Origin: Enterococcus faecalis
GTDB lineage: Bacteria > Bacillota > Bacilli > Lactobacillales > Enterococcaceae
DNA length: 24,000 nt
Assembly (NCBI GenBank): GCA_051295955.1
Contig: JBPDWA010000002.1
Span: forward strand, 377,174-401,173
Direction of reading: 5' to 3'
Of the stretch, positions 6,304 through 16,507 are shown piece by piece. The stretch's first letter is position 1. Every line of letters begins with the position of its first letter. The notes under the pieces are model-generated. The model saw nothing but the letters and a program-made list of their open reading frames with translations. It was not told the DNA's origin and ran no database searches. A program made the translations under genes and the position numbers.

Positions 6304-6585
6304 TTACTTACAGTCCTTTTACTTAAAATAGCGAATGTTTCCGATAATTGATCGCTGTATGTATGAATAATTTCATCGATAGAAACATAGGCTCAGCCTA
6401 TTAAGAGTACCACAAACCCTTCAGACTGGCAAAATGTTATGCCGATGGTGTGAGTGGATTCAACGGAAAAATGAGAACGACATAACCAATCACTCATAGT
6501 TGATTAAAAAAAGATTGTCATCAATTGATACTTCGTGTCTTAACCTTCAATAGTTTACCCAAAAAAGCTGCAGAAGTAAAATAGC

Positions 6586-6633
6586 TCTAATTATTTTTCA
6601 AAAAATTTAACAACTTTTTGAAAAATAATTAGA
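6586..6633 (-). terminator. Perfect 19-bp AT-rich inverted repeat (tctaattatttttcaaaaa / tttttgaaaaataattaga, 10-nt loop). Possibly the terminator of the pentapeptide/FUSC operon, possibly an operator.
   Basis: Read directly: arms 6586-6604 and 6615-6633. It lies 12 nt downstream of the pentapeptide-gene stop and ~280 nt upstream of the mvk start. The U-tract on the minus strand is only partial (gctatttta). Confidence 0.4.
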
Positions 6634-6644
6634 ACTGCTAACGA

Positions 6645-7277
6645 TTATTCAATAATTAATCCTAAAGTACTGGCAATTAATAGCCCCTGTTCTGGTGTCA
6701 CAATAAGTCCTTTTAGATTTTCAGGGGAAAAAAGCAGGGAATCAAAGGTATTACTGGTGAAATCCAATCCTTGTAATTTTGTTCGCAGCCAATTGCTGCC
6801 AGTCAAATTAGCATGTTGGATCAACAAGTGCTTCCAAGTCAATTCGAAAAAATCGCTCTGCTTCAAGCTGGTATTTTGGAAATGAACATCTTTGATGTTG
6901 GTAGCACTAAAAGATGCATAATCCCCTAAACAGTCTTCAAAAACGCAATCTCTTAAATAACCTTCGGCAAAATTAGTGCCGGTTAATTTGCACTGATGAA
7001 AGACGACTTGGTGAAAGCTACCACCAATGAATTCCGTGTTGGAAAAATCACAGCATTCAAAGCGAACGTTGCTGCATTCAAAACGAACAAGATGATTACG
7101 CTGCATGATAACGCGCTGAAAGACTGATTGACGAACTAGCAAGCTATGAACATCTTGATAACTTAAATCTTGATCGACGAGCTGAATGCCGTCAATGGTT
7201 TGTTCATCATCAAGGGTTAGATAATCAAGTTCATCTAATGAAGGAATAACAGGTGCTAATGGTGTTCTTTTTTTCAT
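6645..7277 (-). CDS. Pentapeptide-repeat protein, Qnr-like (EfsQnr-type)
   Basis: Long run of A(D/N)LXX-type pentapeptide repeats (e.g. FECSNVRFECCDFSNTEFIGGSFHQVVFHQCKLTGTNF). About 210 aa with an AAGGAGG RBS. It has the same size and genomic neighbourhood as the E. faecalis qnr-like gene, from memory. Confidence 0.85.
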   Translation of the reverse strand: MKKRTPLAPVIPSLDELDYLTLDDEQTIDGIQLVDQDLSYQDVHSLLVRQSVFQRVIMQRNHLVRFECSNVRFECCDFSNTEFIGGSFHQVVFHQCKLTGTNFAEGYLRDCVFEDCLGDYASFSATNIKDVHFQNTSLKQSDFFELTWKHLLIQHANLTGSNWLRTKLQGLDFTSNTFDSLLFSPENLKGLIVTPEQGLLIASTLGLIIE

Positions 7278-8523: not shown

Positions 8524-8552
8524 TTGCTTTTTTGATGTGAAAATTGTAAACT
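8524..8552 (+). promoter_or_regulatory. Putative oppA promoter
   Basis: TTGCTT (8524-8529), 17 nt, TAAACT (8547-8552). An alternative is TTGTAA (8544-8549), 17 nt, TTAATA (8567-8572). The region is AT-rich, so the assignment is tentative. Confidence 0.3.
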
Positions 8553-8564
8553 GTATCTCATAAG

Positions 8565-8604
8565 TATTAATAATTATTAAATTTTAAATTCTTAATTATT
8601 AATA
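8565..8604. promoter_or_regulatory. Operator-like inverted repeat in the oppA promoter/leader
   Basis: tattaataatta (8565-8576) and taattattaata (8593-8604) are exact reverse complements, 16 nt apart. The left arm is embedded in the perfect palindrome ttaataattattaa (8567-8580). Confidence 0.5.
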
Positions 8605-8618
8605 GCTAGTAAATTCTG

Positions 8619-8633
8619 ATTTTTCAGAAAAAA
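8619..8633 (+). promoter_or_regulatory. Candidate CodY box in the oppA leader
   Basis: ATTTTTCAGAAAAAA matches the CodY consensus AATTTTCWGAAAATT at 12 of 15 positions. opp operons are classic CodY targets in Lactobacillales. Confidence 0.45.
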
Positions 8634-8660: not shown

Positions 8661-10331
8661 ATGAAATTGAAAAAGTCAATTGCATTGGGTTGTGTTACTT
8701 TGTTTAGTCTGACAGCATTAGCTGCATGCGGCGGAAACAACAACTCTGGTAGCAAAAATAAAGCAAGTGAAGGCAAACCGAGTGGAGAACAAGTCTTCCG
8801 TTATACCGAACAACAAGAAATGCCAACAGCCGATTTATCAATGGCAACGGATGAAGTAAGTTTTAACACGTTAAATAATGTTTACGAAGGACTTTACCGC
8901 TTAAATAAAGATAATGAAATTGAACCGGCTGGTGCTGCTGAAAAAGCCGAAATCAGCGAAGACGGTTTAACTTATAAATTTAAATTAAATAAAGATGCGA
9001 AATGGTCAGACGGCAAACCCGTAACTGCCAAAGATTACGTTTACGGCTGGCAACGGACGGTTGACCCTAAAACAGCTTCTGAATATGCGTACTTATTCAG
9101 CCCTGTAAAAAATGCCGATGCTATTAGTAAAGGTGAAAAGGATAAATCTGAATTAGGCATTAAAGCAGTCAGCGACTATGAATTGGAGATTTCCCTTGAT
9201 AAAGCTGCTCCTTATTTTGATTACTTGTTAGCCTCTGTTTCTTTCTTCCCGCAACGTCAGGATATCGTAGAAAAATTTGGCAAAAACTATGCTTCTACTA
9301 GTGATACCGCAGTCTACAATGGACCTTTTGTATTGGCTGATTTTGATGGACCAGGAACAGACACAGAATGGTCTTATAAGAAAAATGATCAATACTGGGA
9401 TAAAAACACTGTAAAACTTGATGAAGTGAAAGTGAACGTGGTAAAAGAATCACCAACAGCTCTAAACTTATTCCAAGATGGTCAAACAGATGATATCAAA
9501 TTAACAGGAGAATTAGCACAACAAATGGCTAACGATCCAGCATTTGTTTCTCAAAAAGAAGCATCAACTCAATATATGGAATTAAATCAACGCGATGAAA
9601 ATTCACCATTTAGAAATGCTAACTTACGGAAAGCAATCGCTTATTCAATTGACCGTAAAGCCTTAGTGGATTCTGTTTTAGGCGACGGTTCCATCGAGCC
9701 CAACGGTTTAGTTCCTGCCAACGTGGCTAAAGACCCAAGCGGTAATAAAGACTTTACAAAAGAAGCGGGCAGTAACATTGGTTTCGATAAGAAAAAAGCC
9801 AAAGAATATTGGGAAAAAGCTAAAAAAGAATTAGGGATCACTACCTTGAAGATGGACATCTTAACTTCTGACGCTGATATTTCTAAGAAAACCGTAGAAT
9901 TCGTCCAAGGAGCGATTCAAGATACTTTGGAAGGGATTAAAGTCACTGTAAGTCCGGTACCATTCTCTGTTCGTTTAGACCGCTCAAACAAAGGTGATTT
10001 CTCTACGGCGATTGGCGGTTGGAGTGCCGACTATGCAGATCCAAGCAGTTTCTTAGACTTGTTTGAATCAACAAATTCATATAACCGTGGCCGTTACAAT
10101 AATCCAGAGTACGATAAGTATATTGAAGCAGCTAGCACAACGAATGTAACTGATCCAGAAAAACGTTGGGATGATATGGTAAATGCTGAGAAAACCATTA
10201 TGGACGACATGGGTGTAATTCCATTGTATCAAAAAGCGGAAGCACACTTACGTTCTGCTAAAGTGAAAGATGTTGCGGTACATCCAGCTGGTGCGAAGTA
10301 TGACTACAAATGGGCTTATATTTCAGAGTAA
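8661..10331 (+). CDS. oppA: Oligopeptide ABC transporter substrate-binding lipoprotein
   Basis: Signal peptide with lipobox LAAC (LTALAACGG), SBP family-5 length and sequence, GGGAGG RBS 8 nt upstream. Confidence 0.93.
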   Translation: MKLKKSIALGCVTLFSLTALAACGGNNNSGSKNKASEGKPSGEQVFRYTEQQEMPTADLSMATDEVSFNTLNNVYEGLYRLNKDNEIEPAGAAEKAEISEDGLTYKFKLNKDAKWSDGKPVTAKDYVYGWQRTVDPKTASEYAYLFSPVKNADAISKGEKDKSELGIKAVSDYELEISLDKAAPYFDYLLASVSFFPQRQDIVEKFGKNYASTSDTAVYNGPFVLADFDGPGTDTEWSYKKNDQYWDKNTVKLDEVKVNVVKESPTALNLFQDGQTDDIKLTGELAQQMANDPAFVSQKEASTQYMELNQRDENSPFRNANLRKAIAYSIDRKALVDSVLGDGSIEPNGLVPANVAKDPSGNKDFTKEAGSNIGFDKKKAKEYWEKAKKELGITTLKMDILTSDADISKKTVEFVQGAIQDTLEGIKVTVSPVPFSVRLDRSNKGDFSTAIGGWSADYADPSSFLDLFESTNSYNRGRYNNPEYDKYIEAASTTNVTDPEKRWDDMVNAEKTIMDDMGVIPLYQKAEAHLRSAKVKDVAVHPAGAKYDYKWAYISE

Positions 10332-10967: not shown

Positions 10968-11918
10968 GTGTCATTTTTGAATAGTTTTGGGAAATATTTT
11001 CTTAAACGGGTCATTTTTATGATTATCACTTTGTGGCTAATTGCGACCATCACATTCTTCTTAATGAAATTACTACCAGGAACTCCTTACACAAATCAAG
11101 AGAAACTTAGTCCCGAAACAATTGCGATGCTTAATAAGCAATCTGGCTTAGATAAACCGGTAATTGTTCAATACGGAATTTATTTGAAAAATTTATTAGT
11201 TGGTGATTTCGGTATTTCCTTCCAATTTAAAAACCAACCGGTGGCTAAACTACTTGCAGGTCGAATTGGACCTTCTTTACAGTTAGGTGGACAAGCAATT
11301 ATCTTTGGTACATTGGTAGGAATCTTGCTGGGAGCTATCGCAGCGATGAAACAAAACACGTGGGTTGACACTACTGCAACGCTCTTAGCCATCTTAGGTC
11401 GTTCTATTCCTAACTTTGTCTTCGCTGTTTTGTTGCAATATATCTTCGCTATGAAATTAGGCATTTTGCCAATTGCTATGTGGAACGGCTTTGCCTATAC
11501 AATTTTACCGACGATCGCACTGGCGATGAGTCCGATGGCAGACTCGGCCCGATTTATTCGCACCGAAATGGTGGAAGTGTTGCATAGTGATTATGTAGAA
11601 TTGGCTAAAGCAAAAGGATTAAGCCGTTGGCAAGTTGCATTTCGCCATGGCCTTAGAAACAGTATGATTCCATTGATTACTTTATTGGGACCTTTGGCTG
11701 TTGGCTTAATGACAGGTTCTTTAGTAGTTGAAAATATTTTTGCGATTCCAGGAATTGGGGAGCAATTTGTAAAATCAATCATGACAAACGACTATCCAAC
11801 AATTATGGCTGTAACCATCTTGTATTCTGCAATGTTAGTAATGGTTATTTTAATTGTTGACTTACTTTACGGCTTAATCGATCCAAGAATTCGTGTTTCA
11901 GGAGGTGTGAAAGGATAA
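10968..11918 (+). CDS. oppB: Oligopeptide ABC transporter permease
   Basis: BPD-transporter permease with an OppB-like N-terminus (KYFLKRVIFMIITLW). The track start at 10968 is a GTG sitting inside the GGAGG RBS. The in-frame TTG at 10977, 8 nt after GGAGG, is the more likely start. Confidence 0.9.
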   Translation: MSFLNSFGKYFLKRVIFMIITLWLIATITFFLMKLLPGTPYTNQEKLSPETIAMLNKQSGLDKPVIVQYGIYLKNLLVGDFGISFQFKNQPVAKLLAGRIGPSLQLGGQAIIFGTLVGILLGAIAAMKQNTWVDTTATLLAILGRSIPNFVFAVLLQYIFAMKLGILPIAMWNGFAYTILPTIALAMSPMADSARFIRTEMVEVLHSDYVELAKAKGLSRWQVAFRHGLRNSMIPLITLLGPLAVGLMTGSLVVENIFAIPGIGEQFVKSIMTNDYPTIMAVTILYSAMLVMVILIVDLLYGLIDPRIRVSGGVKG

Positions 11919-12970
11919 TGGAAACGATCAGTTCAAAAAATTTACCACAAGACATCCAAAATATTCCTGCAGACGCTTTCCAACCTTTAAACACTTCAAC
12001 ACTTGAAGAAAGAGAGCGGATTGCCGCACCTTCACTAAGCTTTCTCCAAGATTCCTGGCGTCGGTTAAAGAAAAATAAAGCCGCTGTTGTTTCTATGGCG
12101 TTCTTAGCGGTGATCATTTTTATTTCAATAATTACGATTTGGGTATCGCCTCATAATCCAACGCAACAAAATGTTTCCTACATTAACTTGCCGCCACGGA
12201 TTCCAGGGCTGGACAGTGTCAACGGCTTAAATGGTAAGACGATGGTAGCAGGACAGCTAGTGGACAAATACGCTCAAGCAAACGTACCAGATAATGTGAA
12301 TTTCTATCTGGGAACAGATGGCTTAGGTCGGGATGTTTTAAGTCGTTTGTTTATGGGAACGAGAATTTCCTTGTTAATTGCTTTTATTGCGGCGATTTTA
12401 GATATTACCATCGGGGTTACTTACGGCTTAATATCAGGCTTGTTTGGCGGTCGTATTGATACCGTTATGCAGCGTATTTTGGAAATTCTTTCTGGAATTC
12501 CTAATTTAGTTATCATGATTTTAATGTTGACAATTTTTGATCCGGGGATTTTATCTATCGTTTTAGCGATGGTTATTACGAACTGGATTTCAATGGCTCG
12601 GATTGTGCGGGCTCAAACATTAAAGCTAAAAGATCAAGAATTTGTCTTGGCCGCTCAAACTCTAGGTGAATCACGTCTGAAGATTGCCTTAAAGCACATT
12701 TTGCCAAATATTTCTAGTGTAATTATTGTACAAATGATGTTTAGTATTCCATCCGCTATTTTCTTTGAAGCGTTCTTAAGCTTTATCGGACTTGGTTTAA
12801 GACCGCCAACCGCTTCTTTGGGAACTTTATTGAATGAAGGCTATAAAACATTCCGTTTCCTTCCTTATTTAATGTGGGTTCCAGCCGCAACCTTATCAGT
12901 GGTAATGATCTGTTTCAACTTGCTGGCTGATGGTCTGCGTGATGCATTTGATCCTAAGATGAAAGAGTAG
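11918..12970 (+). CDS. oppC: Oligopeptide ABC transporter permease
   Basis: OppC-type permease (N-terminal extension, EAA-like loop). Its ATG overlaps the oppB stop (TAATG), and a GGAGGTG RBS lies upstream. Confidence 0.9.
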   Translation: METISSKNLPQDIQNIPADAFQPLNTSTLEERERIAAPSLSFLQDSWRRLKKNKAAVVSMAFLAVIIFISIITIWVSPHNPTQQNVSYINLPPRIPGLDSVNGLNGKTMVAGQLVDKYAQANVPDNVNFYLGTDGLGRDVLSRLFMGTRISLLIAFIAAILDITIGVTYGLISGLFGGRIDTVMQRILEILSGIPNLVIMILMLTIFDPGILSIVLAMVITNWISMARIVRAQTLKLKDQEFVLAAQTLGESRLKIALKHILPNISSVIIVQMMFSIPSAIFFEAFLSFIGLGLRPPTASLGTLLNEGYKTFRFLPYLMWVPAATLSVVMICFNLLADGLRDAFDPKMKE

Positions 12971-12975
12971 AGTGA

Positions 12976-14034
12976 ATGACTATGGAAAAAGTATTAGAAG
13001 TAAAAGACTTAAGAATTTCCTTTGATACATTCGCGGGAAAAGTCAACGCGATTCGCGGCGTTAGCTTTGAACTATTCAAGGGGGAAACCTTGGCAATCGT
13101 AGGTGAATCCGGTAGTGGAAAGTCAGTGACGACCCGAAGTATCATGCGCCTATTAAGTAGCAATGCTACAATTGATAGCGGTGAAATTCTTTTTAAAGGA
13201 CAAGATATTGTCCGCAAAACAGAAAAACAAATGCAAACGATTCGTGGTAAAGAAATTGCGATGATCTTCCAAGATCCGATGACTTCTTTAGACCCGACGA
13301 TGCCAATTGGCAAACAAGTCGCTGAATCTTTAATTAAACACAACAAGGTTTCAAAACAAGAGGGCTTAACTCAAGCATTAGAATTATTGAAATTGGTGGG
13401 TATCCCCAACGCGGAAAAACGTTTGAAAAATTACCCTCATCAATTCTCCGGCGGTCAACGCCAACGGATCGTCATTGCTATTGCACTGATTTGCTATCCG
13501 GAAGTTCTGATCGCTGATGAGCCGACCACCGCTTTGGATGTAACTATTCAAGCTCAAATTTTAGAATTACTGAAAGATCTGCAAGAAAAGATCAGTACCT
13601 CAATCATTTTTATTACCCATGATTTAGGTGTAGTAGCCAATGTTGCTGATCGGGTAGCGGTTATGTACGGTGGGCGCTTAGTGGAAGTAGGAACCGCTGA
13701 AGAAATTTTTTATAATCCGCAACATCCCTATACATGGGGCTTATTAGGTTCTATGCCAACGATGGAAGGAACCGAAGACAAACTTTATGCGATCCCTGGT
13801 TCACCGCCGGATTTACTTGATCCACCAAAAGGTGACGCCTTTTATCCACGGAACGAGTATGCGTTGAAAATTGACGCTGAACAAGAGCCACCGTATTTTG
13901 AAGTTTCACCAACTCATAAGGCTGCAACTTGGCTTTTAGCTCCTCAAGCTCCAAAAGTAACACCTCCGGCTGAAATTGTTCGTCGCTGGGCTATCTATGA
14001 ACAGCGCTATAAAAAGACAGGAGGTGCCAACTAA
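12976..14034 (+). CDS. oppD: Oligopeptide ABC transporter ATP-binding protein
   Basis: Walker A GESGSGKS, signature FSGGQRQR, Walker B LIADEPTTALD, H-loop ITHD, and the OppD/F C-terminal extension. Confidence 0.92.
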   Translation: MTMEKVLEVKDLRISFDTFAGKVNAIRGVSFELFKGETLAIVGESGSGKSVTTRSIMRLLSSNATIDSGEILFKGQDIVRKTEKQMQTIRGKEIAMIFQDPMTSLDPTMPIGKQVAESLIKHNKVSKQEGLTQALELLKLVGIPNAEKRLKNYPHQFSGGQRQRIVIAIALICYPEVLIADEPTTALDVTIQAQILELLKDLQEKISTSIIFITHDLGVVANVADRVAVMYGGRLVEVGTAEEIFYNPQHPYTWGLLGSMPTMEGTEDKLYAIPGSPPDLLDPPKGDAFYPRNEYALKIDAEQEPPYFEVSPTHKAATWLLAPQAPKVTPPAEIVRRWAIYEQRYKKTGGAN

Positions 14035-14996
14035 TGGAAGCAAAGAAAAAAGTTTTACTGGAAGTAAAAGGCTTAAAGCAATATTTCAACGTTGGCCGTA
14101 AAGATGAAGTTAAAGCGGTGGATGACATCAGCTTTCACATTTATGAAGGAGAAACATTTGGGTTAGTTGGCGAGTCCGGTAGCGGAAAATCAACGACAGG
14201 CCGGAGTGTGATCCGCTTATATGATCCTACAGCCGGTGAGATTATTTTTGATGGCAAAGATATCAGCAAAATTCGTGCTAAAAAAGATTTGCAGGAATTT
14301 CGTCGAGAAGTTCAAATGATTTTCCAAGATCCTTACGCATCTTTAAATCCTCGCATGAAAGTTAATGATATTATCGCTGAAGGAATTGATATCAACAAAC
14401 TTGCCAACGATGAAGCACAACGGACTGCTAAAGTAAATGAGCTATTACAAGTGGTCGGACTTGATCCAAGTCACGGCACGCGTTATCCTCATGAATTTTC
14501 CGGCGGTCAACGGCAACGGATTGGCATTGCCCGAGCTCTCGCAGTCGATCCGCGTTTTATCATCTGTGATGAACCGATTTCTGCATTGGATGTTTCGATT
14601 CAAGCGCAAGTAGTTAATTTATTGCAAGACTTACAAAAAAATGTTGGCTTGACCTATTTATTTATTGCTCATGATTTATCAATGGTAAAACATATCAGTG
14701 ACCGAATTGGTGTGATGCATAGTGGTAAATTACTGGAGATGGGCTCAAGTGAAGACGTGTATAGTTTTGGTGTGCATCCTTATACGGAAAGCTTACTTTC
14801 GGCAATTCCGCTGCCTGATCCTGAATACGAACGCAATCGTAAACGGATTATTTATCAAGCACCGGCAGCAGATAATAAAGAACGGAAATTACGTGAAATT
14901 ACACCAGAACATTATGTGTATTGTTCGGAAGATGAGGTAATGATCTACCGTCAAAAAATTGAAGCCAAAAAAGCAGCGGCCCAAGAAAGCTTGTAA
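14034..14996 (+). CDS. oppF: Oligopeptide ABC transporter ATP-binding protein
   Basis: Walker A GESGSGKST, FSGGQRQR, IICDEPISALD, IAHD. Its start overlaps the oppD stop (TAATG), and a GGAGGTG RBS lies upstream. Confidence 0.92.
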   Translation: MEAKKKVLLEVKGLKQYFNVGRKDEVKAVDDISFHIYEGETFGLVGESGSGKSTTGRSVIRLYDPTAGEIIFDGKDISKIRAKKDLQEFRREVQMIFQDPYASLNPRMKVNDIIAEGIDINKLANDEAQRTAKVNELLQVVGLDPSHGTRYPHEFSGGQRQRIGIARALAVDPRFIICDEPISALDVSIQAQVVNLLQDLQKNVGLTYLFIAHDLSMVKHISDRIGVMHSGKLLEMGSSEDVYSFGVHPYTESLLSAIPLPDPEYERNRKRIIYQAPAADNKERKLREITPEHYVYCSEDEVMIYRQKIEAKKAAAQESL

Positions 14997-15303: not shown

Positions 15304-16362
15304 ATGAATATTTTAAGGGCTTATAAGTTTCGACTTTATCCCACCTCAGAGCAGGCGGCGTTTATTCAAAAGTCATTTTCTGCGGTCCGACTGGTGTACA
15401 ATTTGTTGTTACAAGAACGCATTAGAAACTATAAACAGTTAAAAGAAGACCCTGGCGCAACGATTAAAATTCCTACGCCGGCTAAGTACAAAGAACGGTA
15501 TCCTTTTTTGCGAGAAGTAGACAGTTTGGCTTTAGCGAATGCACAAGTATATTTAGATCGTGCCTTTAAAAATTTTTACCGCGGACGCGCAGTGGGGTTT
15601 CCTAAGCTAAAACGCAAAAATACTGTTCATTCATATACGACGAACAATCAACATGGGACTGTTAAGGTTATTGATGGCCGCTATTTAAAAGTTCCCAAAT
15701 TAAAGACGCCTATTAAAATAGCAGTCCATCGACCGTTACAAGGCGAAATTAAGTCAGTGACGATTTCCGTAAGCTCTAGTGGCAAGTATTTTGTGGCGAT
15801 TTTATGTGAAGAAAACGTGACGGCAAAACTTAAAACTGAAAAGGTAACTGGAATTTATCCTAGTCATCAAGCTTTTGCTGAACTAGCTTCAGGAGAACTG
15901 TTAGACAGTCATCATTCTCATCGATGGCAGCAACGGTTAACAGTTGAAGAGGCTAAATTGCGTCGGCGCAAGCAACTGGCTAACAAAAAAGGTAGGGACC
16001 TTGCTTATTGTAAAAATTATCAAAAACAAAAGAAAAAAGTGGCCACTATTCGTGAAAAATTGTTGAATCAACGTTTGGATTTCTTAAATAAGGTGACCAC
16101 TTCCTTGATTACAGATTACGATATAATCTGTATTGATGATTTGGAACAAAATAAGTTGGAAGCCAAATCAGCTTGTAAACAACAATTGCTGGATTTTTCA
16201 TGGCCATTATTTATTGCCAAATTGGAATATAAAGCATTATGGTATGGTAAAAAAGTGATTCGCCTTTCTGCGTGTGAAAGTACCTTAGCTACGCAATTTC
16301 GTCATCTTGACAAAGCTGGTATCCAACAATTTTTAACTCAGCAAGCTGCCGACGCTGAATAG
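15304..16362 (+). CDS. tldR: TnpB-family (IS200/IS605 OrfB-like) protein, catalytically dead and C-terminally truncated: TldR-like RNA-guided repressor candidate
   Basis: The N-terminus MNILRAYKFRLYPT, WED/REC-like middle and ...FIAKLEYKALWYGKKVI are collinear with ISDra2 TnpB, aligned from memory. The RuvC-I GxDxG motif is GIYPS (Tyr codon 15856-15858). The RuvC-II Glu position is Asp (IDDL, 16135-16137). The CxxC...CxxC zinc ribbon and the RuvC-III DRD motif are absent. No tnpA is present. The ATG at 15304 is preferred over the GTG at 15292. Confidence 0.75.
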   Translation: MNILRAYKFRLYPTSEQAAFIQKSFSAVRLVYNLLLQERIRNYKQLKEDPGATIKIPTPAKYKERYPFLREVDSLALANAQVYLDRAFKNFYRGRAVGFPKLKRKNTVHSYTTNNQHGTVKVIDGRYLKVPKLKTPIKIAVHRPLQGEIKSVTISVSSSGKYFVAILCEENVTAKLKTEKVTGIYPSHQAFAELASGELLDSHHSHRWQQRLTVEEAKLRRRKQLANKKGRDLAYCKNYQKQKKKVATIREKLLNQRLDFLNKVTTSLITDYDIICIDDLEQNKLEAKSACKQQLLDFSWPLFIAKLEYKALWYGKKVIRLSACESTLATQFRHLDKAGIQQFLTQQAADAE

Positions 16363-16507
16363 GAGAAACGCTCCGTTTTTTATGAACTGTAGGGACGACA
16401 GGGATAGCCTAGGGGATAAAAGAAGATCGGTTGATAGCTTCTGTTTCTAGGAAGTTTCCATCGCTTGATGGAAATGGTTCACTAATTATTTTTTAATATG
16501 CTTATAC
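16363..16507 (+). ncRNA. Putative TldR/TnpB guide RNA (omega-RNA-like scaffold 3' part plus guide). The 5' boundary may lie inside the ORF 3' end.
   Basis: Nested helices are present: cctag (16409-16413) / ctagg (16448-16452) enclose agaag...cttct. A perfect 8-bp hairpin follows: tttccatc (16455-16462), gctt, gatggaaa (16467-16474). Next comes tggttcac (16475-16482), then the AT-rich segment taattattttttaatatgcttatac (16483-16507) immediately before a terminator. Confidence 0.55.

What the first reader, a model, noticed from the sequence alone, without database searches (positions are those of the whole stretch)
8565..8604. oppA leader carries an inverted pair of TAATTATTAATA boxes sharing the guide's 8-nt seed (alternative TldR target or unknown operator)
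**Seen in the sequence.**
- TAATTATTAATA occurs on the + strand at 8593-8604 and on the - strand (rc of 8565-8576), 16 nt apart.
- A third TAATTATT lies at 8571-8578, inside the perfect palindrome TTAATAATTATTAA.
- All three share the first 8 nt of the predicted guide (TAATTATT) but diverge at position 9.
- The - strand copy is preceded by TTTAA and reads TAATTATTAATACTTATGAG. It aligns to the guide region TAATTATT[TTTT]AATA[TG]CTTATAC in three ordered blocks if two gaps are allowed.
- The boxes lie just downstream of the best promoter candidates and upstream of a CodY-like box and the RBS. A roadblock there would repress oppA.

**Inference.** Autoregulation of the adjacent transporter is the biologically obvious model for an oppF-linked TldR. 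Ungapped complementarity here is only 8 nt, so I rank it below the 6588 site on sequence grounds.
Basis: partly seen in the sequence, partly recalled or inferred. Interest (0 to 1): 0.6.

Follow-up and report, generated by a model that had tools for sequence, protein, structure and literature searches.

The report
Known TldR target in oppA leader
One of the two AT-rich boxes upstream of this Enterococcus peptide-uptake gene is the docking site of an already published RNA-guided repressor (TldR), and the other looks like a decayed local duplicate found only in this species, so the finding is real but largely known.

Summary
The boxes are real, but they are two different things. The minus-strand copy (TAM TTTAA at 8581-8577, seed 8576-8569) is the main target of the oppF-linked TldR-guide RNA, not an alternative one. 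It is the only TTTAA + 8-nt guide match in the genome. It has the same strand, the same 52-nt offset from the -35 box and the same 8-nt match length as the E. faecalis site, where about 40-fold oppA repression on TldR overexpression is published (PMC13622181). All 50 opp-tldR loci examined (this one included) carry one TAM+seed site in the oppA leader, with 6-8 nt matches, never longer. The 11-nt match at 6588 has no TAM. The T6 run is identical in independent assemblies, so it is not an error. The second box (8593-8604) has no TAM and is absent from the orthologues. It lies in a 32-nt species-specific insertion that reads as a decayed tandem copy of the self-complementary TAM/seed unit, and there is no sign of a separate operator. 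Minor new points: guide and target swapped position 9 but still mismatch, and a CodY-like box that overlaps the TAM in relatives is pushed 32 bp away here. The scan already noted this system on this same window.

The parts
8577..8581 (-). TAM TTTAA of the TldR target
   Evidence: inside the invariant 15-nt block 8569-8583 of the leader alignment; TAM of this clade per 10.1101/2023.11.30.569447 and PMC13622181
8569..8576 (-). 8-nt protospacer matching guide positions 1-8; position 9 (8568) mismatches; the guide pairs with the coding strand
   Evidence: only TTTAA + 8-nt match in the genome; orthologous to the E. faecalis site
8567..8580 (.). 14-bp palindrome: TAM plus seed is nearly self-complementary, and one substitution at 8568 completes it
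8566..8578 (+). Overlapping opposite-strand site with a non-cognate TAM (ATTAA) and 8-nt match; probably weak
   Evidence: ATTAA lost targeting specificity with Efa1TldR in 10.1101/2025.08.27.672191
8584..8615 (.). 32-nt species-specific insertion that reads as a decayed tandem duplicate of the ancestral 15-nt seed/TAM unit
   Evidence: absent from the 8 closest orthologues; repeat units shown; identical in 4 other assemblies of this species
8593..8604 (+). Second 12-nt box; no cognate TAM on either strand (+: ATTCT, 8-nt match; -: ATTAA, 6-nt match)
8524..8552 (+). Probable oppA promoter: -35 TTGCTT (8524-8529), 17 nt, -10 TAAACT (8547-8552); start site inferred near 8559
   Evidence: one such element at the same offset in all 9 loci of the E. 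faecalis group; start 7 bp after the -10 box is by analogy to V583 RNA-seq; below the threshold of the consensus scanner
8610..8633 (+). CodY-like box (15-mer at 8619-8633 with 3 mismatches; 24-nt double site from 8610)
   Evidence: 2 mismatches in the closest orthologues; codY gene present; consensus from PMC10415144; not tested for binding
8661..10331 (+). oppA, oligopeptide-binding lipoprotein, the regulated gene
   Evidence: 82% identical to the E. faecalis orthologue
10968..14996 (+). oppB, oppC, oppD, oppF
15304..16362 (+). tldR, nuclease-dead TnpB homologue, 352 aa
   Evidence: first RuvC Asp replaced by Tyr, C-terminal zinc finger and third acidic residue missing; TAM-contact residues kept
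16382..16482 (+). Guide-RNA scaffold (5' end approximate)
   Evidence: conserved blocks shared with the E. faecalis scaffold; 97-100 nt length by analogy to Efa1TldR
16483..16493 (+). Guide, 9-11 nt by analogy; first 7 nt invariant in all 55 related loci where the junction was found
   Evidence: identical in independent assemblies

Best explanation
The minus-strand site at 8569-8581 is the cognate target of the TldR-guide RNA complex encoded after oppF. TldR reads the TTTAA TAM, the short guide pairs with 8 nt of the coding strand, and the nuclease-dead complex sits about +11 to +23 from the inferred start site and lowers oppA transcription by steric hindrance. Shown here: sequence, uniqueness, conservation, geometry, dead active site, intact TAM-contact residues. 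Shown in the E. faecalis orthologue by others: binding, 9-11 nt guide, repression on overexpression. Inferred: activity in this species; also that the block acts mostly on initiation or promoter escape, since the site lies inside the polymerase footprint and its TAM faces away from the promoter, the orientation that was a poor elongation roadblock in reporter assays. The second box is a by-product of a local duplication of the self-complementary seed/TAM unit and has no separate ligand.
For: Only TTTAA + 8-nt match in 2.69 Mb. None of the 7 other SBP family 5 paralogue leaders has a TAM-like + seed site. 50 of 50 opp-tldR loci have exactly one TAM+6-nt seed within 260 bp of oppA, against 8 sites elsewhere in 692 kb; these genomes are related, so this is not 50 independent events. 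Offset from -35 is 52 nt here and in L049, and 52-53 nt in seven other close relatives. The L049 guide equals the published Efa1 guide and its leader target equals the published 9-nt target string, so the validated site is also an 8-nt match. About 40-fold oppA repression in V583. L4, S74, L75, N79, Q81, V82, N114, Q116, L167, Y307 and W311 are all kept. Second box absent from all orthologues.
Against: No binding or expression data for this species. In V583, deleting tldR and its guide did not de-repress oppA under standard culture; repression was seen only on overexpression. The inverted repeat is 2 bp longer than the direct repeat and needs two substitutions in the left arm (8565, 8568) that both perfect it, which simple tandem duplication does not require.
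Confidence: 0.88

Rival explanations
1. The 12-bp inverted repeat is the operator of a conventional dimeric DNA-binding protein specific to this species, layered on the TldR site.
For: Perfect 12-bp arms, shuffle p about 0.004; fixed in 4 other assemblies of the species; both left-arm differences from the ancestral state improve the symmetry.
Against: Absent from all 49 related leaders. The next-best genomic copy has 4 of 24 mismatches. No regulator gene flanks the leader. The arms are all A/T, and the left arm is already explained by the TAM and seed.
Confidence: 0.05
2. The repeat matters as an RNA hairpin at the 5' end of the oppA mRNA (stability or pausing), or the extra partial sites (ATTAA + 8 nt on +, ATTAA + 6 nt on -) add weak TldR occupancy. 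This can hold alongside the best explanation.
For: Predicted hairpin at about +5 to +49, -7.4 kcal/mol; the E. faecalis leader also folds weakly over the same segment (z -2.2); the seed is about 6 nt.
Against: Folding is not beyond shuffles (z -1.1 to -1.7) and leaves the ribosome-binding site free. ATTAA lost specificity with Efa1TldR.
Confidence: 0.1
3. The main TldR target is the 11-nt match at 6588 or 6631, between the pentapeptide-repeat gene and the mevalonate operon, and the oppA site is secondary.
For: Longest ungapped match in the window (11 nt).
Against: Flanked by AGCTC and AGTTC, not TTTAA; no TAM-flanked counterpart upstream in the 8 closest orthologues; in V583 no differentially expressed gene other than oppA had TAM-adjacent complementarity.
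Confidence: 0.02
4. The system has decayed in this species, so the site is a relic kept only as part of the promoter or CodY region.
For: The guide has diverged after position 8 into a T run and the leader has gained an insertion.
Against: Intact ORF with all TAM-contact residues, conserved scaffold, seed and TAM unchanged, match length equal to E. faecalis.
Confidence: 0.05

Closest known systems
oppF-associated TldR-gRNA of Enterococcus faecalis (Efa1TldR / V583); Wiegand et al. 10.1101/2023.11.30.569447; Xiao et al. PMC13622181
   Same: Gene order oppA, antisense DUF3899, oppBCDF, tldR, gRNA; TAM TTTAA; guide positions 1-8; target on the bottom strand downstream of the promoter at the same 52-nt offset; 8-nt match; TAM-contact residues.
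   Different: Protein 56% identical; first RuvC residue Tyr instead of Cys; guide position 9 is U and target position 9 is A (reversed in E. faecalis); a 32-nt insertion adds the second box and moves the CodY-like box away from the TAM.
oppF-associated TldR targets of the E. faecium / E. cecorum type
   Same: Same guide seed and TAM, one site in the oppA leader.
   Different: There the site is on the top strand inside the -35/-10 spacer (+12 from -35) with 6-7 nt matches; in this genome that spacer position has lost the TAM.
CodY operator (15-nt pseudo-palindrome, often as a 24-nt overlapping pair; PMC10415144)
   Same: A CodY-like box lies at 8610-8633 in the same leader and is conserved in most relatives.
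   Different: It is separate from the inverted boxes; no 15-mer with 3 or fewer mismatches overlaps 8565-8604.
ISDra2 TnpB (PDB 8h1j, 8bf8)
   Same: Homologous over residues 5-322 (E 4e-43).
   Different: Active nuclease with a longer guide and a different TAM; here the catalytic Asp and the C-terminal zinc-finger region are missing.

Membership tests
oppF-associated TldR system | TnpB homologue directly downstream of oppF of an opp operon | tested here: met
oppF-associated TldR system | [quoted passage not shown] | tested here: met
   ISDra2 catalytic Asp aligns to Tyr, alignment ends at residue 322 of 352
oppF-associated TldR system | No adjacent tnpA transposase | tested here: met
   no transposase ORF in the gene calls around tldR; transposon ends were not searched separately
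oppF-associated TldR system | gRNA scaffold downstream of tldR ending in CAC, followed by the conserved seed | tested here: met
   matches the published Efa1 junction
oppF-associated TldR system | TTTAA TAM plus at least 6-nt seed match upstream of the linked oppA | tested here: met
oppF-associated TldR system | TAM-recognition residues (S74, L75, Q116 and neighbours) | tested here: met
oppF-associated TldR system | Short mature guide, RNA-guided binding and repression in vivo | not testable with these tools
   shown only for the E. faecalis orthologue
Conventional palindromic operator (12-bp inverted repeat) | Conserved in orthologous promoters | tested here: not met
   none of the related leaders has the box pair
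Conventional palindromic operator (12-bp inverted repeat) | Further copies in the genome or an adjacent regulator gene | tested here: not met
   (next best 4 of 24 mismatches)
CodY operator (8610-8633) | Match to the 15-nt or 24-nt consensus, with codY present | tested here: inconclusive
   3 mismatches here, and 635 sites in the genome have 3 or fewer; 2 mismatches in close orthologues; codY present
CodY operator (8610-8633) | CodY binding and de-repression in a codY mutant | not testable with these tools
   no paper found for this promoter

The most novel reading that the evidence does not exclude
The guide-target duplex of this TldR clade is actively capped at 8 bp or less. Here both guide position 9 and target position 9 changed relative to the E. 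faecalis group and the mismatch survived, so each species' guide fits the other's target better than its own (11 and 9 nt against 8 and 8). In addition, TldR and CodY would compete at an overlapping TAM/operator in the E. faecalis group, while the 32-bp insertion (about three helical turns) lets both bind here. That could explain why a tldR deletion shows no effect in rich medium.
Probability: 0.2. Interest if true: 0.45.

Novelty: new member of a known kind. Interest (0 to 1): 0.17.

Why it matters
It adds one unstudied sister species of E. faecalis to a published RNA-guided repression system and settles which site in this window is the target. The system and its oppA target are already described and tested in E. 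faecalis, so the core finding is not new. The comparison gives two small testable leads on the open question of when TldR acts: native matches never exceed 8 nt, and a CodY-like box overlaps the TAM in relatives but is displaced here. This species is a natural variant for testing TldR-CodY interplay.

Tried and rejected
The search for related loci in genome contigs gave only distant TnpBs; orthologues came from the genome search. A metagenome scan for the insertion junction found nothing. The consensus promoter scanner missed the plus-strand promoter, so it was placed by conservation. No solved TldR structure was in the PDB copy. The terminator scanner found nothing at 6500-6700, so the terminator reading of the 6588 palindrome was not confirmed here. 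Rejected: assembly error in the T6 run; perfect guide-leader matches in orthologues; 6588 as target (no TAM); the gapped extension as functional (9 extra nt, shuffle p about 0.006 post hoc, but 0-3 in the 8 closest orthologues and outside the mature guide); the inverted repeat as a CodY box or a repeated operator; a significant 5' UTR hairpin. One search failed on wrong coordinates and was redone.

Full report
Observation. The 12-mer lies on + at 8593-8604 and on - at 8576-8565, 16 nt apart. A third 8-mer at 8571-8578 sits in a 14-bp palindrome at 8567-8580, and TTTAA precedes the minus-strand copy. A perfect arm of 12 bp appears in about 0.4% of shuffles of the 80% A+T intergenic region, and the genome has 6 comparable all-A/T repeats, so the repeat is uncommon but not unique. 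The boxes are not independent, because the TAM plus 8-nt seed is nearly its own reverse complement.

Context. The window holds oppA (8661-10331), an antisense DUF3899 gene, oppBCDF, a TnpB homologue (15304-16362) and a downstream RNA unit. The TnpB homologue has Tyr at the first RuvC Asp and lacks the C-terminal zinc-finger region. The only other species of the same genus searched (G001, locus L049) has a 356-aa homologue that is 56% identical. Its gene length and guide equal those listed for Efa1TldR of E. faecalis in the supplement of 10.1101/2023.11.30.569447, so I treat L049 as E. faecalis. Every TAM- and duplex-contact residue named in PMC13622181 is kept here, and the scaffold aligns in conserved blocks.

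What is published. Wiegand et al. found 9-11 nt guides, a TTTAA TAM, a seed of about 6 nt and predicted targets upstream of oppA. Xiao et al. showed about 40-fold oppA repression in V583 on overexpression of TldR and its guide, no de-repression on deletion under standard culture, and a site downstream of the start site. Their target search string is the 9-mer found after TTTAA in the L049 leader. It differs from the Efa1 guide at position 9, so the validated native site is an 8-nt match, as here. I infer this from sequences; I could not see their figure.

The target. TTTAA followed by 8 guide-matching bases occurs once in the genome, at 8581-8569 on the minus strand. One or two such 13-mers are expected by chance, so the argument rests on position and conservation. 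None of the seven other family 5 binding-protein genes has such a site in its leader. All 50 opp-tldR loci with a leader in view (this one and 49 related) have exactly one TAM+6-nt seed within 260 bp of oppA, against 8 sites elsewhere in 692 kb. These genomes are related, so the count shows conservation, not 50 independent tests. Three geometries occur: bottom strand at +52/53 from the -35 box (this genome, E. faecalis and seven close relatives), top strand at +12 inside the spacer (most others), and bottom strand just upstream of -35 (a paralogous operon). In the first group the 15 nt at 8569-8583 are invariant. Match length is 6, 7 or 8 nt in 16, 26 and 8 loci and never more.

The 11-nt matches at 6588 and 6631 have no TAM and no TAM-flanked counterpart in close orthologues. 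The T6 run is identical in assemblies from seven other samples that differ from the window by 0.1-0.35% elsewhere, and in one further genome assembly, so it is not an error. No orthologous guide matches its own leader perfectly. The gapped extension adds 9 nt (shuffle p about 0.006, post hoc), but the eight closest orthologues score 0-3 and the blocks lie beyond the mature guide length. I leave it as an unexplained, probably chance, resemblance.

The second box. Relatives have one seed/TAM unit running straight into the CodY-like box. This genome has 32 extra bases (8584-8615), giving two units of 22 and 25 nt that both start with the same 10 nt and end with the same 8 nt. That reads as a tandem duplication followed by small insertions, one of which broke the copied TAM: the copy has ATTCT on + and ATTAA with only 6 matches on -, and ATTAA lost targeting specificity with Efa1TldR. 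Because the unit is palindromic, a direct duplicate also appears as an inverted repeat. Two left-arm substitutions (8565, 8568) make the arms perfect; template-switch correction or an inverted copy would explain this without selection (inference). No related leader has the pair, the next-best genomic copy has 4 of 24 mismatches, and the boxes do not fit the CodY consensus. The predicted mRNA hairpin is not beyond shuffles.

Mechanism. The likely promoter is -35 at 8524-8529 and -10 at 8547-8552, with a start near 8559 by analogy to V583. The site is then at about +11 to +23. The guide pairs with the coding strand and the TAM faces away from the promoter. In reporter assays only the opposite orientation blocked elongation well in a 5' UTR. 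Since RNA polymerase covers DNA to about +20 during initiation (established knowledge, not tested here), I infer that TldR mainly hinders initiation or escape rather than acting as a pure roadblock.

Small new points. Guide position 9 is U and target position 9 is A here, the reverse of the E. faecalis group, so cross-species matches (11 and 9 nt) beat native ones (8 nt). This fits a selected limit on duplex length, but it is a single event. A CodY-like 24-nt site overlaps the TAM by 4 bp in the E. faecalis group and is moved 32 bp downstream here; codY is present, and PMC13622181 does not mention CodY. The match is weak on its own (3 mismatches, shared with 635 genomic sites).

Verdict. This is a new-species instance of a published and experimentally validated system. 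The target assignment is strong, and the inverted pair is most likely incidental. Earlier notes of this scan on the same window reached the same reading; they were not used as evidence. Interest 0.17.

Noticed in passing
L058:8534-10540, L083:8663-10600; also L062, L087, L100 (genus g14): tldR-like genes with the same 7-nt guide seed but no adjacent opp operon; they follow an aac(6')-Ii-like gene (for L058 and L083; the other three by similar N-termini). In G028 and G071 a TAM+seed site lies about 200 bp upstream of an OppA-like lipoprotein elsewhere (L125, L127), which suggests action in trans; G040, G028 and G071 gave no close oppA orthologue with this query.
   Followed up: partly
L080, L092, L097, L098, L102, L105: A second, paralogous opp operon (OppA about 25-29% identical to the window's) carries its own tldR with the same guide seed and a bottom-strand site just upstream of the -35 box; some genomes (G005, G034) hold two opp-tldR loci.
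   Followed up: partly
window 8610-8633 and L047-L054 leaders: CodY-like box conserved in most oppA leaders; overlaps the TAM in the E. faecalis group, 32 bp away here.
   Followed up: partly
   Followed up: partly
L049 and L047-L054 leaders, + strand: In the E. faecalis group the guide matches the top strand for 9-10 nt (7 in L050) without a TAM, because guide positions 7-10 are complementary to the TAM.
   Followed up: no
L066, L070, L071, L073-L075, about 2.0-2.4 kb upstream of oppA; L103:4742; L118 and L119: A second conserved TAM+6/7-nt seed site in some genera, upstream of a different gene or between oppA and oppB.
   Followed up: no
L107:2004-3139: The FUSC-family gene next to the oppA leader is called as two pieces (184 and 195 aa) in one metagenome assembly of this species but is whole in the window.
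   Followed up: no
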